From Tubiluchus corallicola (taxonomy: Eukaryota; Animalia; Priapulida), in the NCBI GenBank assembly GCA_030141605.1, contig JAQGDQ010002015.1, forward strand, positions 1-17,741: a stretch of 17,741 bases of DNA. The letters run 5' to 3'. Below, in pieces: positions 602 through 17,741 of the stretch. Every line of letters starts with the position of its first letter. The stretch's first letter is position 1. Made by a program: the position numbers and the translations under genes. A model generated the notes under the pieces. The model ran no database searches. It worked only from the letters and a program-made list of their open reading frames with translations, and was not told where the DNA came from.

Positions 602-758
602 AATTGGGCCTACCTCCTAGAAGAGTCGAATATTAGGATCAGAGTGGCCATTTTGAGCTTTGGGCGGGTAGTAAAATTCGAGTCTTCACTACTTTTTGAG
701 AGTTACCGCTCCCTGGAGCAAGTTATTCGTGCAATCGACCGCGTACCTTACTTTCAAC
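602..758 (+). CDS. Internal exon of a vWA-domain protein (NWAYLLEESNIRIRVAILSFGRVVKFESSLLFESYRSLEQVIRAIDRVPYFQ)
   Basis: Acceptor tttttgcacAG (600-601), donor AAC|GTGAGT (759); 157 nt, ends in phase 1. RVAILSFG and SLEQVIRAIDRVPY match the vWA beta-B strand and the following helix. Not in the ORF track because it lacks a start codon. Confidence 0.85.
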
Positions 759-905
759 GTGAGTAGACATTACATCAATAAATTAGTGGTGCTGTTGTTG
801 TTGTTGTTGCTGTTGTTGTTGCTCCCTGGAGCAAGTTATTCGTGCAATCGACCGCGTACCTTACTTTCAACGTGAGTAGACGTTACATCAATAAATTAGT
901 GGTGC

Positions 906-941
<36 letters not shown>

Positions 942-1331
942 GTTGTTGTTGTTGTTGTTGTTGCTGTTGTTGTTGCTCCCTGGACCAAGTTATTCGTGCA
1001 ATCGACCGCGTACCTTACTTTCAACGTGAGTAAACATTACATCAATAAATTAGTGGTGCTGTTGTTGTTGTTGTTGTTGTTGTTGTTGTGTTGTTGTTGT
1101 TGTTGTTGTTGTTGCTCCCTGGAGGAAGTTATTCGTGCAATCAACCGCGTACCTTACTTTCAACGTGAGTAGACGTTACATCAATAAATTAGTGGTGCTT
1201 TGTTGTTGTTGTTGTTGTTGTGTTGTTGTTGTTGTTGTTGTTGTTGCTCCCTGGAGGAAGTTATTCGTGCAATCAACCGTGTACCGTACTTTCAACGTGA
1301 GTAGACATTACATCAGTAAATTAGTGGTGCT

Positions 1332-1372
<41 letters not shown>

Positions 1373-1458
1373 GCTCCCTGGAGCAAGTTATTCGTGCAAT
1401 CGACCGCGTACCTTACTTTCAACGTGAGTAGACGTTACATCAATAAATTAGTGGAGCT

Positions 1459-1505
<47 letters not shown>

Positions 1506-1600
1506 ATTGTTGTTGCTCCCTGGAGGAAGTTATTCGTGCAATCAACCGCGTACCTTACTTTCAACGTGAGTAGACATTACATCAATAAATTAGTGGAGCT

Positions 1601-1632
<32 letters not shown>

Positions 1633-1756
1633 ATTGTTGTTGCTCCCTGGAGCAAGTTATTCGTGCAATCAACCGTGTACCTCACTTTCAACGTGAGTAG
1701 ACATTACATCAATAAATTAGTGGTGCTTTGTTGTTGTTGTTGTTGTTGTTGTTGTT

Positions 1757-1789
<33 letters not shown>

Positions 1790-1916
1790 GCTCCCTGGAG
1801 CAAGTTATTCGTGCAATCGACCGCGTACCTTACTTTCAACGTGAGTAGACGTTACATCAGTAAATTAGTGGTGCTTTGTTGTTGTTGTTGTTGTTGTTGT
1901 TATTGTTGTTGTTGTT
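708..1916 (+). repeat. 9-copy tandem repeat: exon 3' end + splice donor + intron start (~85 bp) followed by variable (GTT)n
   Basis: GCTCCCTGG starts at 708, 821, 975, 1114, 1246, 1373, 1515, 1642 and 1790. Period is 113-154 bp, with the variation in the GTT tract. Confidence 0.97.
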
Positions 1917-2571: not shown

Positions 2572-2799
2572 GTTCAGTAAGAAAATGTCCCCTGCAGAGG
2601 ACGCCATTTGGCTTTGTGGAGTACGACGGTTGCGCCACCTGTACCGACAAAGTGCTAACTGTGTCAGAATACATACTCTTGAATAGCGGAAAGTCACGTG
2701 ATACGGCTACCAAAGCTATTATTCTCATCACAGATGGCAGATCAAATTGTGCTGACGAGTTTCGCACATGCGCAGTTGCTGGGAGGCTAAAAAATGCTG
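2572..2799 (+). CDS. Internal exon of vWA-domain protein (RSVRKCPLQRTPFGFVEYDGCATCTDKVL...KAIILITDGRSNCADEFRTCAVAGRLKNA)
   Basis: Acceptor tgtttttctAG (2570-2571), donor CTG|GTAAGC (2800); 228 nt, phase 1-1, in frame with both neighbours. Contains the vWA hallmark ILITDG.S and the G..T.T MIDAS loop. Confidence 0.9.
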
Positions 2800-2821
2800 G
2801 TAAGCAACTGAGGGTTGGGGG

Positions 2822-3104
2822 GGGGGGTGACAATTCTCTAACAAAATGCGTATTCGAGTCGAATTTGTGACTTTCGAATTCGAATCGAATCGAATTTCAG
2901 TATTTCGAACTCGAATTAAATTTTAAAGATTTTCGAACAGGTTTTCGAACTGCAAGGAAAAGGTGATCTTACAAAGATCATGCATATTGCTCGATTTTGC
3001 TCAGAAATCACAGCTAAACTGCGCTAATTGCATGGCGTTTCAAAAGTTTTAGTGATAAAGAACTCATTTGGCTGAAGTGCTGAATTATTCGAATCTATTG
3101 TTTT
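2822..3104 (+). mobile_element. Degenerate, 3'-truncated copy of the hAT MITE at 9761-10168
   Basis: Shares GAATTTGTGACTTTCGAATTCGAATCGAA, TCTTACAAAG.TCATGCATAT, GTTTTAGTGATAAAGAAC and TGAAGTGCTGAATTATTCGAATCTAT in order. The left TIR has decayed and the right TIR is absent. Confidence 0.85.
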
Positions 3105-3929: not shown

Positions 3930-4081
3930 GTGTTGATATCTTCGTTCATGCCGTGGGAGAGCTGATCTATGAGCCGGAAATCCTCTGCATTGCAAGTGAC
4001 GGGAATTTTAATCTGAACACAAATTACGAACAAACTTGCGAAGTAACTTCCCTCGCCAGAGAGACAGGAGTGCAGAAATGA
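3930..4081 (+). CDS. Terminal coding exon of vWA-domain protein (GVDIFVHAVGELIYEPEILCIASDGNFNLNTNYEQTCEVTSLARETGVQK*)
   Basis: Acceptor ttttttcAG (3928-3929), phase 1. GV.IF..AVG and E...IAS are the canonical vWA C-terminal strand and helix. TGA stop at 4079-4081. Confidence 0.88.
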
Positions 4082-4788: not shown

Positions 4789-7397
4789 TGGCAACACCAT
4801 GCGTTTACTTTGACAACTCTAAGAAGTGCTGCAATCCTTAGAATTGCAACATGGCAACACCATACGTTTACCTTGACAACTCTAAGAACTGCTGCAAACT
4901 TCAGAATTGCAACATGACAAAAAACCATACGTTTACCTTGACAACTCTAAGAACTGCTGTAAACCTCAGAATTGCAACATGGCAACACCATACGTTTAGC
5001 TTGACAACTCTAAGAACTGCTGCAAACCTCAGAATTGCAACATGGCAACATCATACGTTTAGCTTGACAACTCTAAGAACTGCTGCAAACCTCAGAATTG
5101 CAACATGGCAACACCATACGTTTACCTTGACAACTCTAAGAACTGCTGCAATCCTCAGAATTGCAAAGTGGCAACACCATACGTTTACCTTGACAACTCT
5201 GAGAAGTGCTGCAAACCTCAGAATTGCAACATGGCAACACCATACGTTTACCTTGACAACTCTAAGAAATGCTGTAATCCTCAGAATTGCAACATGGCAA
5301 CACCATATGTTTACCTTGACAACTCTAAGAACTGCTGCAATCCTCAGAATTGCAACATGACAACACCATACGTTTACCTTGACAACTCTAAGAACTGCTG
5401 CAATCCTCAGAATTGCAACATGGCAAAACCATACGTTTACCTTGACAACTCTAAGAACTGCTGCAATCCTCAGAATTGCAACATGGCAACACCATACGTT
5501 TACCTTGACAACTCTAAGAACTGCTGCAATCCTCAGAATTGCAACATGGCAACACCATACGTTTACCTTGACAACTCTAAGAAGTGCTGCAATCCTTAGA
5601 ATTGCAACATGGCAACACCATACGTTTACCTTGACAACTCTAAGAACTGCTGCAATCCTCAGAATTGCAACATGGCAACACCATACGTTTACCTTGACAA
5701 CTCTAAGAAGTGCTGCAATCCTTAGAATTGCAACATGGCAACATCATACGCTTACCTTGACAACTCTAAGAACTGCTGCAAGCCTCAGAACTGCAACACC
5801 ATACGCTTACTTTGACAACTCTGAGAAGTGCTACAATCCTCAGAATTGCAACATGGCAACACCATACGCTTACCTTGACAACTCTAAGAACTGCTGCAAT
5901 CCTCAGAATTGCAACATGGCAACACCATACGTTTACCTTGACAACTCTAAGAAGTGCTGCAATCCTCAGAATTGCAACATGGCAACACCATACGTTTACC
6001 TTGACAACTCTAAGAAGTGCTGCAATCCTTAGAATTGCAACATGGCAACATCATACGCTTACCTTGACAACTCTAAGAACTGCTGCAAGCCTCAGAACTG
6101 CAACACCATACGCTTACTTTGACAACTCTGAGAAGTGCTACAATCCTCAGAATTGCAACATGGCAACACCATACGCTTACCTTGACAACTCTAAGAACTG
6201 CTGCAATCCTCAGAATTGCAACATGGCAACACCATACGTTTACCTTGACAACTCTAAGAACTGCTGCAATCCTCAGAATTGCAAAGTGGCAACACCATAC
6301 GTTTACCTTGACAACTCTGAGAAGTGCTGCAATCCTCAGAATTGCAACATGGCAACACCATACGTTTACCTTGACAACTCTGAGAACTGCTGCAATCCTC
6401 AGAATTGCAACATGGCAACACCATACGTTTACCTTGACAACTCTAAGAAGTGCTGCAATCCTCAGAATTGCAACATGGCAACACCATACGTTTACCTTGA
6501 CAACTCTAAGAACTGCTGCAATCCTCAGTATTGCAACATGGCAACACCATACGTTTACCTTGACAACTCTAAGAAATGCTGCAATCCTCAGAATTGCAAC
6601 ATGGCAACACCATACGTTTACCTTGACAACTCTAAGAACTGCTGCAATCCTCAGAATTGCTACATGGCAACACCATACGTTTACCTTGACAACTCTAAGA
6701 ACTGCTGCAATCCTCAGAATTGCAACATGGCAACACCATACGTTTACCTTGACAACTCTAAGAACTGCTGCAATCCTCAGAATTGCAACATGGCAACACC
6801 ATACGTTTACCTTGACAACTCTGAGAACTGCTGCAATCCTCAGAATTGCAACATGGCAACACCATACGTTTACCTTCACAACTCTAAGAAGTGCTGCAAT
6901 CCTTAGAATTGCAACATGGCAACACCATACGTTTACCTTCACAACTCTAAGAACTGCTGCAATCCTCAGAATTGCAACATGGCAACACCATACGTTTACC
7001 TTGACAACTCTAAGAACTGCTGCAATCCTCAGTATTGCAACATGGCAACACCATACGTTTACCTTGACAACTCTAAGAAATGCTGCAATCCTCAGAATTG
7101 CAACATGGCAACACCATACGTTTACCTTGACAACTCTAAGAACTGCTGCAATCCTCAGAATTGCTACATGGCAACACCATACGTTTACCTTGACAACTCT
7201 AAGAACTGCTGCAATCCTCAGAATTGCAACATGGCAACACCATACGTTTACCTTGACAACTCTAAGAACTGCTGCAATCCTCAGAATTGCAACATGGCAA
7301 CACCATACGTTTGCCTTGACAACTCTAAGAAGTGCTGCAACCCTCAGAATTGCAACATGACAACACCACACGTTTACCTTGACAACTCTAACAAGTG
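4789..7397. repeat. 63-bp minisatellite, ~41 units (ATGGCAACACCATACGTTTACCTTGACAACTCTAAGAACTGCTGCAATCCTCAGAATTGCAAC)
   Basis: Directly visible. The 21-aa periodicity appears in three ORF frames, and two units carry an 8-bp deletion. Confidence 0.98.
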
Positions 7398-7649: not shown

Positions 7650-8615
<966 letters not shown>

Positions 8616-8701
8616 TATTACAAAGACAAATTTATTTACGCAGCGTACCATCAAGGTGGATACTAATTTCTCTGGCTTCCTGTGAGCAAAGCCACAGATT
8701 C

Positions 8702-8713
8702 TGCGCATGCGCA
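8702..8713. promoter_or_regulatory. Perfect NRF1/EWG/P3A2-type palindrome TGCGCATGCGCA in a locally CpG-rich patch
   Basis: Exact match to the established NRF1 consensus; function here is inferred. Confidence 0.4.
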
Positions 8714-9423
8714 CGCATCCTGCGATTGTTTTCCTCGAGCACGCAGCAACAATCGCACGCTTCCCGACGGGAAACCAGTCTGTCTGGTTGCTTTCGGCTG
8801 TTTGTGTTCGGAACAAAGTCGTTCCAGTTGTTTGTTGCTGTGGAACGCGTTCTGTGGGAAGAATAACCAGCGGATTTGTGTGGTTAAGAAAAACTGTGAT
8901 AATGAGAAACAGCAGCATGTGAGGATTAAGCTTAAGTCTAGTGAAGATGTGCCAAGTGGTACGTATAGCTACAACGACTCTACCTCTTTGAAGTTTGAAA
9001 TCTAGGTTAAATAACTATGGAAGTTTTTGCTGAATCAATCAAAATGGCTTATTTATGATACTGCAGCAATGATCAGGCTGAAATAACAACAACAAAATAA
9101 TTACATATAATACTGCCATACCGCATACAGCGTAAGTACAAATATAAATGTTTCGAATTATGCTAATTTAAGAATTGTTCTTTTAATCACAAAAGTATAA
9201 CTGCAAATAATATACCGTTCTAAACGTTAAACATCCGCTTGGCACTGCATGGAGTTCTTATTGTTAAATGTGTTAAAAACTGTCTCCTGGCAAACAGCAA
9301 TATGGGTGCTCTTCATATGCTGAAATCTTCGAGATCCTCTATAGGTAACCTTAAAACATTATTATTGTACACAGACATATTTGTCGTACTATAAATATAA
9401 TTGTTTTAGCGGCAAACAACAGA

Positions 9424-10683
<1,260 letters not shown>

Positions 10684-10710
10684 CACTTGTTTAGTATTAA
10701 ATTTTATTGT

Positions 10711-11180
10711 TTAAATCAAAACAGGACCCAATTTTAAACTGCAGGTCAAGACAATCTACTTTTTTAAAATATTGAAAGAAACCATTTTTTAAAAATGACT
10801 TACGTGAAAGAATTATTACCACACAAACGAAATTTCGCGTTCGCACCACTAGTTCTTCGCTGCACATGCATTTCGCCGTTCGCTAGTCAGACGGGCTCTA
10901 GCGTCTAGCATTTTGGAAAAGCATGCACAAAAACAGGTGTTGTACCTCTCAGTTTTGATTTGTTCGTTTGTGACGAAGTGCATACGTTCGACAGCTCATC
11001 CTAGTTTTAGTACAGCACACTGAATATCTTACAGTAGCACTGTACTTCAATTTTCGCTTTTGCAAACACGTGCAACACTCTCATGGAATATTTTTGCTGT
11101 TGAAAATTATGTTAGTTTGTGACGTCATCAACAGTTGGGCTCGCCCCACGTTAATTAAGTTTGAATCTGTTAGTTAATTT
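10711..11180. mobile_element. Copy of the dispersed element seen at 1-415 (inverted), starting at TTAA
   Basis: The reverse complement aligns to 1-415, including the terminal TTGG.TCC...TTAA. The inner boundary is uncertain. Confidence 0.6.
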
Positions 11181-11223
11181 TTTCTTCATTTCGCTTTCTT
11201 GCATCGACTTAATCATTCCTTTG

Positions 11224-11633
11224 TCATTCATTCATTCATTCATTCATTCATTCATTCATTCATTCATTCATTCATTCATTCATTCATTCATTCATTCATT
11301 TATTCATTCATTCAGTCAGTCAGTCAGTCTGTGAGTCAGTCAGTAAATGATTCATTCATTCATTCATTCATTCATTCATTCATTCATTCATTCATTCGTT
11401 TATTCATTCATTCATTCGTTCATTCATTCATTCATTCATTCGTTCGTTTTTTTCATTTATTTATTTCTTTATTCTTTCTTTCATGCTTTCTTTCGTTCTT
11501 TCAATCATGCTAGTTCACTCATCCATTCATTCTTTCATTAATTCATTTATTTGTCCTTTCTTTCTTTCATTCGTTTTCGCTCAATCATTCATCCATCCAT
11601 CCATTCTTTCATTCAATCAATCATTCGTTTTCA
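11224..11633. repeat. (TCAT)n/(TCAG)n microsatellite grading into degenerate TTCA/TTCT low complexity
   Basis: Directly visible; mirrored at 14824-15225. Confidence 0.95.
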
Positions 11634-12016
11634 TTTTCCTGGATTAAACAAGAATGCGGTTACAGAATTCTGTAGGGAATTTTAAATTGACAGTCAAGGG
11701 ACTGAGTGACACAGATTTCATTGCTAATGGCAACTGACTGTTCCATTTACTATTGACGTTCAAATCAGTCAAACAAAGCTAATAGTCTTATACAGTAAAA
11801 GTAATATCCGTAGTATACGCCTTTTATATCATTGGCTTCCCTACTGTCTAGCCTATCTCTTTATGAATGCGCCCCCCCCCTTATAATGCCGACCTCGCTT
11901 AATGCACAAACATTCGGCAAAACAAAATATCTATACCTGCATGGACATGTGTGTGTTAAAGTATTTTGTATAGATATGTGTGCTATACTCTGTCTCCTTC
12001 AGCCTCGGGCAGCTAC

Positions 12017-13576
12017 ACCAGTGTTTTTCCTGTCTAGGACATTAGAGCATAGCAACACCATTGTTTATCCCTCTAGGGCAGCAGAGCATAGCAACGCTGG
12101 TGTTTTTCCCTCTAGGACAGTAGAGCATAGCAATACCAGTGTTTTTCCCTCTAGGACAGCAGAGCATAGCAACACCAGGGTTTTTCCCTCTAGGGCAGCA
12201 GAGCATAGCAACACCAGTGTTTTCCCTCTAGGGCAGTAGAGCATAGCAACACCAGTGTTTTTCCCTCTAGGACAGTAGAGCATAGCAACACCAGTGTTTT
12301 TCCTGTCTAGGACAGTAGAGCATAGCAACACCAGTGTTTTTCCTGTCTAGGACAGTAGAGCATAGCAACACCAGTGTTTTTCCCTCTAGGGCAGCAGAGC
12401 ATAGCAACACCAGTGTTTTTCCCTCTAGGGCAGCAGAGCATAGCAACACCAGTGTTTTTCCCTCTAGGGCAGCAGAGCATAGCAACACCAGTGTTTTCCC
12501 TCTAGGGCAGTAGAGCATAGCAACACCAGTGTTTTTCCATCTAGGACAGTAGAGCATAGCAACACCAGTGTTTTTCCTGCCGGGAAGATAGAGCATAGCA
12601 ACACCAGTGTTTTTCCTGTCTGGACAGTAGAGCATAGCAACACCAGTGTTTTTCCCTCTAGGGCAGCAGAGCATAGCAACACCAGTGTTTTTCCCTCTAG
12701 GGCAGCAGAGCATAGCAACACCAGTGTTTTTCCCTCTAGGGCAGCAGAGCATAGCAACACCAGTGCTTTTTCCTGCCGGGACAGTAGAGCATAGCAACAC
12801 CAGTGTTTTTCCTGCTAGGACAGTAGAGCATAGCAACACCAGTGTTTTTCCCTCTAGGGCAGCAGAGCATAGCAACACCAGTGTTTTTCCTGCCGGGACA
12901 GTAGAGCATAGCAACGCCAGTGTTTTTCCCTCTAGGGCAGCAGAGCATAGTAACACCAGTGCTTTTTCCTGCTGGGACAGTAGAGCATAGCAACACCAGT
13001 GTTTTTCCCTCTAGGACAGTAGAGCATAGCAACACCAGTGTTTTTCCTGCCAGGACAGTAGAGCATAGCAACACCAGTGTTTTTCCCTCTAGGGCAGCAG
13101 AGCATAGCAACACCAGTGTTTTTCCCTCTAGGAAGATAGAGCATAGCAACACCAGTGTTTTTCCTGTCTAGGACATTAGAGCATAGCAATACCAGTGTTT
13201 TTCCCTCTAGGACAGCAGAGCATAGCAACACCAGTGTTTTTCCCTCTAGGGCAGCAGAGCATAGCAACACCAGTGTTTTTCCCTCTAGGACAGTAGAGCA
13301 TAGCAACGCCAGTGTTTTTCCCTCTAGGGCAGCAGAGCATAGCAACACCAGTGCTTTTTCCTGCCGGGACAGTAGAGCATAGCAACGCCAGTGTTTTTCC
13401 CTCTAGGGCAGCAGAGCATAGTAACACCAGTGCTTTTTCCTGCCGGGACAGTAGAGCATAGCAACACCAGTGTTTTTCCCTCTAGGACAGTAGAGCATAG
13501 CAACGCCAGTGTTTTTCCCTCTAGGACAGTAGAGCATAGCAACACCAGTGTTTTTCCTTCTAGGACAGTAGAGCAT
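12017..13576. repeat. 39-bp minisatellite, ~40 units (ACCAGTGTTTTTCCCTCTAGGRCAGYAGAGCATAGCAAC; 38-40 bp variants)
   Basis: Directly visible; gives 13-aa periodic ORFs with frequent frameshifts. Flanked by the direct repeat GCAGCTAC. Confidence 0.98.
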
Positions 13577-14735: not shown

Positions 14736-15722
14736 TAAATTAACCATCATCATCTCTTCAACTGTCATAGCGCTAATAGCACATCAAAAACAATTGTCAG
14801 CTTCCATATCCTTTTTTGTTTCTTGAAAACGAATGATTGATTGAATGAAAGAATGGATGGATGGATGAATGATTGAGCGAAAACGAATGAAAGAAAGAAA
14901 GGACAAATAAATGAATTAATGAAAGAATGAATGGATGAGTGAACTAGCATGATTGAAAGAACGAAAGAAAGCATGAAAGAAAGAATAAAGAAATAAATAA
15001 ATGAAAAAAACGAACGAATGAATGAACGAATGAATGAACGAATGAATGAATGAATGAATAAATAAATGAATGAATGAATTAGTGACTGACTGACTGACAG
15101 GCTAACAGATTGACAGACAGACTGACTGACTGACTGAATGAATGAATAAATGAATGAATGAATGAATGAATGAATGAATGAATGAATGAATGAATGAATG
15201 AATGAATGAATGAATGAATGAATGACAAAGGAATGATTAAGTCGATGCAAGAAAGCGAAATGAAGAAAAAATTAAATAATAGATTAAAACTTGATTAGCG
15301 TGGGGCGAGCCCAACTATTTATGACGTCACAAACGAACATAATTTTCAACTGCAAAAATGTTCCACGAGCGTGTTGCACGTGTTTGTGAAAGTGAAAATT
15401 GAAGCACGGTGCTACTGTAAGATATTCAGTGTGTTGTGCTAAAACTAGGATGAGCTGTCGAGCGTGTGTAGTTCGTCACAAACTAACAAATCTGAATTGA
15501 GAGGTGTGACACCTGTTTTTGTGCATGTTTTTCCGAAATGCTAGGCGTTAGTGCCCGTCTGACTAGCGAATGGTGAAATGCATGTGAGCGGAGAACTAGT
15601 GGTGAGAACGCGAAATTTCGTTTGTGTGGTAGTAATTCTTTCATGTAAGTCATTTTTAAAAAATGTTTTCTTTCAATATTTTGTGTTGTTTGTGGTTTTT
15701 GGGTTGTTTTGTTTTTTTTTGT

Positions 15723-15753
<31 letters not shown>

Positions 15754-15809
<56 letters not shown>

Positions 15810-16989
15810 GTTATTATTATTATTATTGTTATTATTTTATTATTATTATTATTTATTATTATAATTATTATTATTATTATGAGTTTATTTCATATAAAAA
15901 TATACAGTTTACAAAGATAAAGATGTTAGTAAAACAGGTAATGCGATGTTAGTAAAGTAACATATCTACAGACATTCAACTTTATAATAACCACACATTG
16001 TAGTTCCCTTGTAATTATATTACATTATACAGTGTTGTAAGGAGCTATAATAGATATCTTAAAACATAATCTTTAAATGAGTTCTTAACCTTTAATTTTA
16101 CATTTTCGTTTAGATCTACAGTACAACCATATTTAAATCTTGAATTTACTCGACTGTTATTTACATAGTAGCATAGCTTTGGAATTCTCAATGTGCAAGA
16201 GTTTACAATTTTTCTCACAAAATTTAATTTTCGACTAACCATTAGGGGTGAGCATCGAACGTTCGAATCGAATTCGAACGCTCGAATTCGATTCGAACGA
16301 GTTTTTTTAGTTCGAACTCGATTCGAATCCAAAACTATAGATTCGAATAATTCAGCACTTCAATCACACATGTTCTTTATTACTAAAACGATTGAAACAT
16401 CATGCAATTAGAATAATTTAGCTGTGATTTCTGTGCTCAATTTTAAACAAATTACTAGTCGTTTTATTGCAGAGCAAAATCTAGTGATATGCATGACCTT
16501 TGTAAGACTAATTTTTACTGGTGGTTCGAAAACTTGTTCGAAAAATCTTTCGGTCTGAATTCGAATTCGGTTCGAATTCGAAACACTGAAGTTCGGTTCG
16601 ATTCGAATTCGAAAGTCACAAATTCGGTTCGATTCGAATTCGCTTTCTGGTAGAGAATGCTCACCCCTACTAACCATTAAATAATTCGCAGGCATTGTGC
16701 CACAAAAATACATTAACAATTTGACGCTTTCATTTTGTCTAAAATCGAATATTTTCCTACAAGCAGTGTTCCATTTTACCCTAACGGCATTAACTTCACT
16801 GTTTGATATACCCCAAATCTCGCATCCGTATAATAAAATGGGTGGACAATATGTATTGATCAGAGTTTTAGCTACTATGTCATTACGGCTATGGCCCATG
16901 CTTGAGAGAATATTATTCACGGAACTAATAAATTTCCTTTTTAACATTGAAACATCAATAGAAAAACTATCACTTGTCAAAATATCGCA

Positions 16990-16994
<5 letters not shown>
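15754..16994 (-). mobile_element. Second (inverted) copy of the LINE 3' fragment with (TTA)n tail
   Basis: ORFs 16408-17034 and 16045-16332 (-) carry the two halves. It retains YGCEIW and lacks the left arm's frameshift. Confidence 0.85.
16243..16669 (-). mobile_element. hAT MITE, 427 bp (duplicate of 9761-10168 with 19 extra bp)
   Basis: Same 13-bp TIRs; TSD CTAACCAT at 16235-16242 and 16670-16677. Confidence 0.93.

Positions 16995-17741
<747 letters not shown>

What the first reader, a model, noticed from the sequence alone, without database searches (positions are those of the whole stretch)
15683..15755. A G/T-only tract that is exactly the other arm's sequence with every A and C deleted
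Seen: the reverse complement of 10684-10765 (82 nt, AAAAAAGTAGATTGTCTTGACCTGCAG...ACTAAACAAGTG) with all A and C removed gives GTGTTGTTTGTGGTTTTTGGGTTGTTTTGTTTTTTTTTGTG, matching 15683-15723 base for base (41/41). The following 32 T's equal 16 ATT units without their A's. I know of no biological process that deletes two base types selectively. Inference: a base-versus-gap tie across a heterozygous indel or alignment end during polishing, or a two-base signal dropout in a read. It is a useful assembly-error signature and would be extraordinary if real.
Basis: partly seen in the sequence, partly recalled or inferred. Interest (0 to 1): 0.75.

Follow-up and report, generated by a model that had tools for sequence, protein, structure and literature searches.

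The report
Assembly tie-break erases A and C
This G/T-only stretch is exactly a nearby repeat copy with every A and C removed, and it is likely not real DNA but a software error made when the genome assembly broke ties between two disagreeing reads.

Summary
Observation confirmed: 15683-15723 equals the reverse complement of 10684-10765 minus its 32 A and 9 C (41/41). It is most likely an assembly artefact. A column-by-column vote between two sequences, one spanning about 130 nt and one gapped there, broke ties in a fixed order T>G>gap>A>C. Three findings support this. (1) Substitutions just upstream follow the same rule: 23 A/C-to-G/T, 0 the other way. (2) Such tracts occur across this 345-Mb assembly: 16 of 50 complex G/T tracts are exact projections of sequence in their own locus, against 0 of 19 purine tracts. 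(3) At another tract, a short-read contig skips it. The order read on the other strand equals Python-2 dictionary order (recalled hash); the program is not identified. Against: the same tract sits in a second contig, the read tool masked this tract, and flank bias was not seen at other loci. Useful as a quality-control signature, not as biology.

The parts
15683..15723 (+). G/T-only tract: the 82-nt end of a dispersed repeat plus its flank, with every A and C dropped
   Evidence: 41/41 match to the filtered reverse complement of 10684-10765
15724..15755 (+). 32-T run, likely the first 16 ATT units with A dropped
   Evidence: the ATT array resumes at 15756; inference
15407..15682 (+). Mixed zone: repeat-element body in which every difference from arm A goes up the order T>G>gap>A>C
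   Evidence: 33 of 33 differences; family letters adopted only when higher in the order
15270..15406 (+). Upstream part of the element, only partly following the rule
   Evidence: 11 of 16 differences
15756..15880 (+). Intact remainder of the ATT microsatellite
10684..10765 (-). Intact source sequence in arm A; its junction with the ATT array is single-copy in the assembly
10766..11180 (-). Copy of a high-copy dispersed repeat (over 2,000 candidate places)
   Evidence: the far end is approximate
9436..11633 (-). Arm A of the inverted duplicate
   Evidence: self-BLAST, alignment
14824..16994 (+). Arm B of the inverted duplicate, holding the tract; about 2 kb of it recurs on contig C1396

Best explanation
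The tract is the neighbouring repeat sequence with every A and C removed, and it is likely a consensus-calling artefact rather than DNA. Inferred steps: at a low-coverage, repeat-rich spot only two sequences voted, one from this locus and one from a paralogous repeat copy aligned with a gap of about 130 nt; each column tied 1:1; the program resolved ties by a fixed symbol order (T > G > gap > A > C on this strand, which is A > C > gap > T > G on the other). G and T beat the gap and survived, the gap beat A and C, and base-versus-base ties went the same way. The faulty consensus was likely reused in two contigs and polished separately; short reads cannot map onto the tract, so it would persist. 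The order matches Python-2 dictionary or set order for the five symbols (lead only; program not identified).
For: Shown: exact projection. In 15407-15682 all 26 substitutions and 7 gaps against arm A go up T>G>gap>A>C; 23 are A/C-to-G/T and none the reverse (p 2e-7; interval picked after viewing; over 15270-15682 it is 31 to 3), against 16 to 8 in the distal arm. Where the family majority differs from arm A, arm B took it in 11 of 14 columns if higher in the order and 0 of 5 if lower (Fisher p 0.005); over 56 family copies 630 of 1099 'up' cells and 0 of 700 'down' cells are shared (cells not independent). The mean of 20 'up' differences per copy is near the 26 seen. All 29 other top family copies keep A and C at this place. 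Genome-wide: 16 of 50 complex G/T tracts (13 of 39 loci) have an exact projection of 30-106 nt in their own locus; controls 2 of 50 (reversed tract), 0 of 50 (other strand), 0 of 19 purine tracts. Tracts at L073 and L076 are projections of near-identical dispersed copies (scores 35 of 36 and 83 of 92 against shuffled maxima 27 and 54). At L080 a short-read contig joins 1987 to 2107, skipping the tract, so an allele without it exists (one contig, depth 3.9). The assembly reuses sequence: 3,801 nt holding another tract are identical in two contigs in opposite orientation. Six of nine differences between C1396 and arm B in the element move to the family majority.
Against: The same tract start stands in a second contig (C1396, 96.7% to arm B, T-run 38 instead of 32), as inheritance would also give. 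Tracts show no bias to the contig's + strand (106 to 85), so the error is not from a last polish of the contigs as oriented. The directional flank bias was not found at other tract loci. The second voter was not found in the assembly. 15270-15406 follows the order in only 11 of 16 differences, and a 19-nt stretch absent from arm A is intact in arm B, so arm A is not exactly the first voter. The order within G/T and within A/C rests on 3 substitutions and 2 retained columns; an order with C above A fits 32 of 33. For 34 of 50 tracts no source was found in the locus; L070 and L071 stayed unexplained with family copies too.
Confidence: 0.88

Rival explanations
1. Still an artefact, but made in one read by loss of the A and C signal, then copied into the assembly.
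For: [quoted passage not shown] A similar split for PacBio RS dyes is recalled, not checked. A read-level origin would explain tracts on both contig strands.
Against: Illumina adds one base per cycle and its deletion rates are about 2e-5, so lost signal gives wrong or unknown letters, not deletions. A single-pass long read would not give 41 of 41 without error (inference). Dropout does not produce one-way substitutions that copy family letters, nor tracts that sit on indels.
Confidence: 0.04
2. Real DNA: a single-strand process removes amino bases, for example deamination of A and C, excision and skipping of abasic sites, giving A-to-G and C-to-T changes nearby and full loss inside the tract.
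For: A and C are the bases whose deamination reads as G and T (established chemistry); 20 of 26 flank substitutions are A-to-G or C-to-T. The tract is in two contigs whose flanks differ. No read test covered this tract.
Against: Inside the tract all 41 A/C are deleted and none is converted; outside only about a fifth of A/C differ. Six transversions also follow the order, and the changes copy the family's letters only when these rank higher, which chemistry cannot know. At L080 the reads bridge the tract.
Confidence: 0.02
3. An ordinary G/T-rich low-complexity sequence that resembles the other arm by chance or by slippage.
For: Two-letter tracts are common in this genome: a like purine pattern has 135 matches, and a second G/T pattern is dominated by simple TGG-type repeats.
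Against: Exact in-register projection, p about 8e-12; purine tracts never pass the projection test (0 of 19).
Confidence: 0.005
4. Artefact by another software route: a gap code that sorts between C and G (the letter D, or a numeric deletion code between the codes of C and G) with last-maximum ties, or a bug on the high bit of a two-bit base code.
For: Gives the same G/T-over-gap-over-A/C split and fits 32 of 33 differences. The four best of 120 orders all put the gap between G/T and A/C.
Against: One C-to-A change (15605) and one retained A against a family C in 28 of 29 copies (15489) favour A above C.
Confidence: 0.055

Closest known systems
Chimeric consensus and over-polishing in repeats of long-read assemblies (T2T polishing study, bioRxiv 10.1101/2021.07.02.450803; passages read)
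   Same: Errors gather in repeats and near heterozygous or collapsed loci; two sources are merged into a sequence that no read holds; found by k-mers absent from reads.
   Different: The passages read describe no base-selective loss. Here the merge is column by column with a fixed symbol order, leaving a two-letter projection.
Column-wise majority-vote consensus with a fixed tie order (recalled practice; CPython-2 dict/set order A, C, gap, T, G computed from the recalled hash)
   Same: Puts the gap between A/C and G/T, A above C and T above G, as seen on the strand opposite the tract.
   Different: No program was identified or run; the hash rule and the habits of specific tools are recalled, not checked.
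G/T-rich microsatellites and low-complexity tracts
   Same: Two-letter composition; flagged by Tandem Repeats Finder.
   Different: Not periodic; it is an exact, in-register projection of a four-letter sequence.
APOBEC C-to-U and ADAR/TadA A-to-I hypermutation (recalled)
   Same: Strand-biased C-to-T and A-to-G changes in a patch.
   Different: These enzymes substitute, do not delete runs of both bases, and give no ordered transversions.

Membership tests
Two-sequence tie-break consensus artefact | Retained letters are an exact, in-register subset of a real sequence | tested here: met
   41/41
Two-sequence tie-break consensus artefact | Base-versus-base ties in the same zone follow the same order | tested here: met
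   33 of 33 in 15407-15682; family letters taken 11 of 14 up, 0 of 5 down. Not seen at other loci
Two-sequence tie-break consensus artefact | Recurs at unrelated loci of the same assembly with the same two letters | tested here: met
   16 of 50 G/T tracts, 0 of 19 purine tracts; L073, L076
Two-sequence tie-break consensus artefact | A gapped sequence exists at tract sites | tested here: inconclusive
   One contig bridges the tract at L080; the gapped partner of the window's tract was not found
Two-sequence tie-break consensus artefact | Tract k-mers absent from raw reads of the assembled individual | tested here: inconclusive
   The read tool skipped 15696-15890 as repeat and holds contigs only
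Python-2 dict/set order as the tie rule | Order A > C > gap > T > G on the voting strand | tested here: inconclusive
   Best fit 33 of 33, but a rival order fits 32 of 33
Python-2 dict/set order as the tie rule | The pipeline holds such a voting step | not testable with these tools
   Assembly method not available
Final polishing error on oriented contigs | Tracts G/T-only on the + strand of contigs | tested here: not met
   106 forward, 85 reverse; 27 and 23 among complex tracts
Single-read signal dropout | Loss of two bases without directional substitutions in the flank | tested here: not met
   23 to 0 directional substitutions
Deaminase hypermutation | Only C-to-T and A-to-G substitutions, no deletions | tested here: not met
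   41 deletions and 6 ordered transversions
Microsatellite or slippage tract | Periodic unit that explains the sequence | tested here: not met
   15683-15723 is explained letter for letter by 10684-10765; only weak periods of 10, 18 and 29

The most novel reading that the evidence does not exclude
The tracts are real: this organism has a strand-specific process that strips every A and C from 70-600-nt stretches at indel sites in repeats, and the copy on C1396 is an inherited duplicate of one such event.
Probability: 0.02. Interest if true: 0.95.

Novelty: not a real feature. Interest (0 to 1): 0.12.

Why it matters
As biology it does not matter. As quality control it does: complex G/T-only (or A/C-only) tracts that are projections of nearby sequence mark places where this assembly's consensus rested on two conflicting sequences, and the flanks there can be false mixtures with a G/T bias that mimic hypermutation. 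One tight pattern gave 191 matches in the assembly (some are natural repeats), so annotation, repeat dating and variant calls at such sites are unsafe. The projection test is cheap and needs no reads. Six paper searches (listings only) showed no description of this signature, which is weak evidence that it is not in print.

Tried and rejected
Contig-strand asymmetry as proof: not found (106 to 85), so a last polish of oriented contigs was rejected. Reads on the window tract: summed contig depth in run X1 falls from 148,224 (15636-15671) to 28.7 (15672-15707) and to 0 at 15708-15887, but the tool skipped 15696-15890 as repeat, so the hole proves nothing; the same holds for zero depth on the L080 tract. 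X1-X3 are one sample and may or may not be the assembled individual. Pooled flank substitution bias at other tract loci: none (near windows A>G 16 vs G>A 20, C>T 21 vs T>C 28); per-locus test also null apart from two flanks that held a second tract; G/T fraction falls only from 0.53 to 0.50 with distance. Source of the L070 tract: not in 9 fetched family copies tested by flank match nor above shuffles; L071 likewise. Second voter: best other copies only 79-86% to the mixed zone; no element end followed directly by ATT repeats. Raw pattern counts as evidence: rejected, since purine tracts give 135 matches and a second G/T pattern mostly hits simple repeats; a G/C pattern gave 0. The 120-order scan used gap costs that split substitutions into indels and cannot rank bases within a class. 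Of the 16 projection hits, one is broken by N letters and one has a reversed control of 34, so 14 are clean. Whether prokaryotic assemblies show such tracts was not examined. Scan index look-ups gave nothing that bears on this.

Full report
Setting. The window is a whole 17.7-kb contig (C1838) of a 345-Mb, 2,547-contig eukaryotic assembly. It is dense in satellites and microsatellites and ends in copies of itself: 14824-16994 is an inverted copy of 9436-11633, and 16990-17741 a direct copy of 7650-8451.

Observation. The reverse complement of 10684-10765 with A and C removed equals 15683-15723 at 41 of 41 bases. 32 A and 9 C are lost and no G or T. Chance is excluded: p about 8e-12, and the longest such run in 500 shuffles is 21 nt. 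The next 32 T fit 16 ATT units without A, which would make the affected stretch about 130 nt; this part is arithmetic, not proof.

What the source is. It is the end of a dispersed repeat with over 2,000 candidate copies, plus a short unique flank. All 29 other top copies keep A and C there. The intact junction occurs once in the assembly. The G/T form occurs twice, here and on contig C1396 in the opposite orientation.

The flank gives the mechanism. In 15407-15682 arm B differs from arm A at 26 substitutions and 7 gaps, and all 33 go up the order T>G>gap>A>C. 23 substitutions turn A or C into G or T, none the reverse; the interval was chosen after viewing the data, and over 15270-15682 the count is 31 to 3, against 16 to 8 in the distal arm. 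Arm B took the repeat family's majority letter in 11 of 14 columns where it ranks higher than arm A's letter and in 0 of 5 where it ranks lower. Over 56 family copies it shares 630 of 1099 higher-ranking and 0 of 700 lower-ranking letters (not independent). A paralog offers about 20 higher-ranking differences over this length, close to the 26 seen. So arm B reads as the column-wise pick between an arm-A-like sequence and a diverged paralog. Where the paralog has a gap, the pick leaves only G and T. A 48-nt stretch that most family copies have and arm A lacks left no trace, as in a vote anchored on a backbone where insertions need a majority (inference).

It is general in this assembly. One 35-letter pattern has 191 matches. 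Raw counts mean little, because purine tracts give 135. The projection test separates them: 16 of 50 complex G/T tracts (13 of 39 loci) have an exact projection of 30-106 nt from ordinary four-letter sequence in their own locus, mostly neighbouring units of tandem arrays; 14 are clean. Controls gave 2 of 50, 0 of 50 and 0 of 19. In dispersed families, the tracts at L073 and L076 are projections of 98-100% identical copies elsewhere; at L073 projected and cleanly deleted stretches alternate, and single-base losses in homopolymers suggest thin, noisy long-read cover. L078 and L080 score modestly above shuffles; L070 and L071 are unexplained.

Reads. Only contigs of public runs were available. 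On the window the tool skipped the tract as repeat, so nothing is shown. At L080 one contig of run X2 (depth 3.9; 105 and 74 letters on the two sides) joins 1987 to 2107 and so skips the tract, and a locus-specific X1 contig stops at the same place. This shows a gapped version at a tract site, as the tie model needs; it does not show the intact version.

The second copy. C1396 shares about 2 kb with arm B at 96.7% and the same tract start, with 38 T instead of 32. This is the best argument for inheritance. But six of its nine differences from arm B within the element move to the family majority, and two of seven distal ones are the commonest letters among short-read contigs, as separate polishing with paralogous reads would give. 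The assembly demonstrably reuses sequence: 3,801 nt with another tract are identical in two contigs in opposite orientation. With tracts on both contig strands, the error most likely predates contig layout.

Which rule. On the other strand the order is A>C>gap>T>G. That is the slot order of these five characters in a Python-2 dictionary or set, computed from the recalled hash, so a first-maximum vote in such a script would give it. An order with C above A (a deletion coded as D, or by a number between those of C and G; recalled conventions) fits 32 of 33. The place of the gap is firm; the order within classes rests on five columns. No program is named with confidence.

Against and null. No flank bias at other loci, which is expected only where the second voter is nearly identical or has been polished away (inference). 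The second voter was not found. Arm A is not exactly the first voter. Absence from raw reads is untested.

Rivals. Signal dropout: the A/C versus G/T split matches Illumina's lasers, but that chemistry adds one base a cycle and rarely deletes (PMC4381044, passages), and dropout gives no ordered substitutions. Deamination and skipping: matches the amino/keto split and the 20 transitions, but not complete deletion without conversion, the six ordered transversions, or the selective copying of family letters.

Literature. Six searches showed no description of this signature (listings only; supplements and software issue trackers not seen). The nearest is chimeric consensus and over-polishing in repeats (10.1101/2021.07.02.450803, passages).

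Verdict. A real pattern in the file and very likely not in the organism: artefact about 0.97 overall, two-sequence tie-break about 0.9, Python-2 order about even. Interest 0.12.

Noticed in passing
window 16990-16994, 7650-8451, 9436: Arm B ends and a direct copy of 7650-8451 begins across a 5-nt microhomology, the junction expected if 7650-9435 were inverted in another haplotype or read; the contig may be a mosaic of two haplotypes.
   Followed up: partly
G000 contigs C2465 and C1966; C2453, C685 and C496; C1845 and C1466: The assembly holds near-duplicate long contigs: lengths 1,053,078 and 1,053,064 with matches at nearly the same coordinates, three contigs with a match at identical coordinates, and 13 contigs with an equal-scoring hit. 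Its 345 Mb likely overstates the genome.
   Followed up: no
window 2574-2798 and 3932-4069 (+): Two likely exons of a von Willebrand factor A domain protein; the first hits Pfam VWA at E 0.003, below the curated cut-off, the second hits nothing.
   Followed up: partly
window 4789-7391 and 12011-13576: A 63-bp satellite (41.5 copies) and a 39-bp satellite (40 copies).
   Followed up: no
window 708-1916: Tandem units of about 113-154 bp, each a fixed 80-nt core plus a TTG microsatellite of varying length.
   Followed up: no
window 9760-10170, 16240-16680, 2820-3090: A repeat element rich in palindromic TTCGAA words, with short inverted ends, in three copies.
   Followed up: no
window 16745-16889: Arm B differs from both arm A and C1396 at 11 places here, mostly T to C, suggesting a third source sequence at the arm's end.
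   Followed up: partly
L065:2144-2290, L072:1701-1762: Several tracts are flanked by short direct duplications, as at insertion or tandem-duplication polymorphisms.
   Followed up: no
window 9007-9341: A 335-bp repeat with at least 40 copies at 92-96% identity, some in inverted pairs.
   Followed up: no
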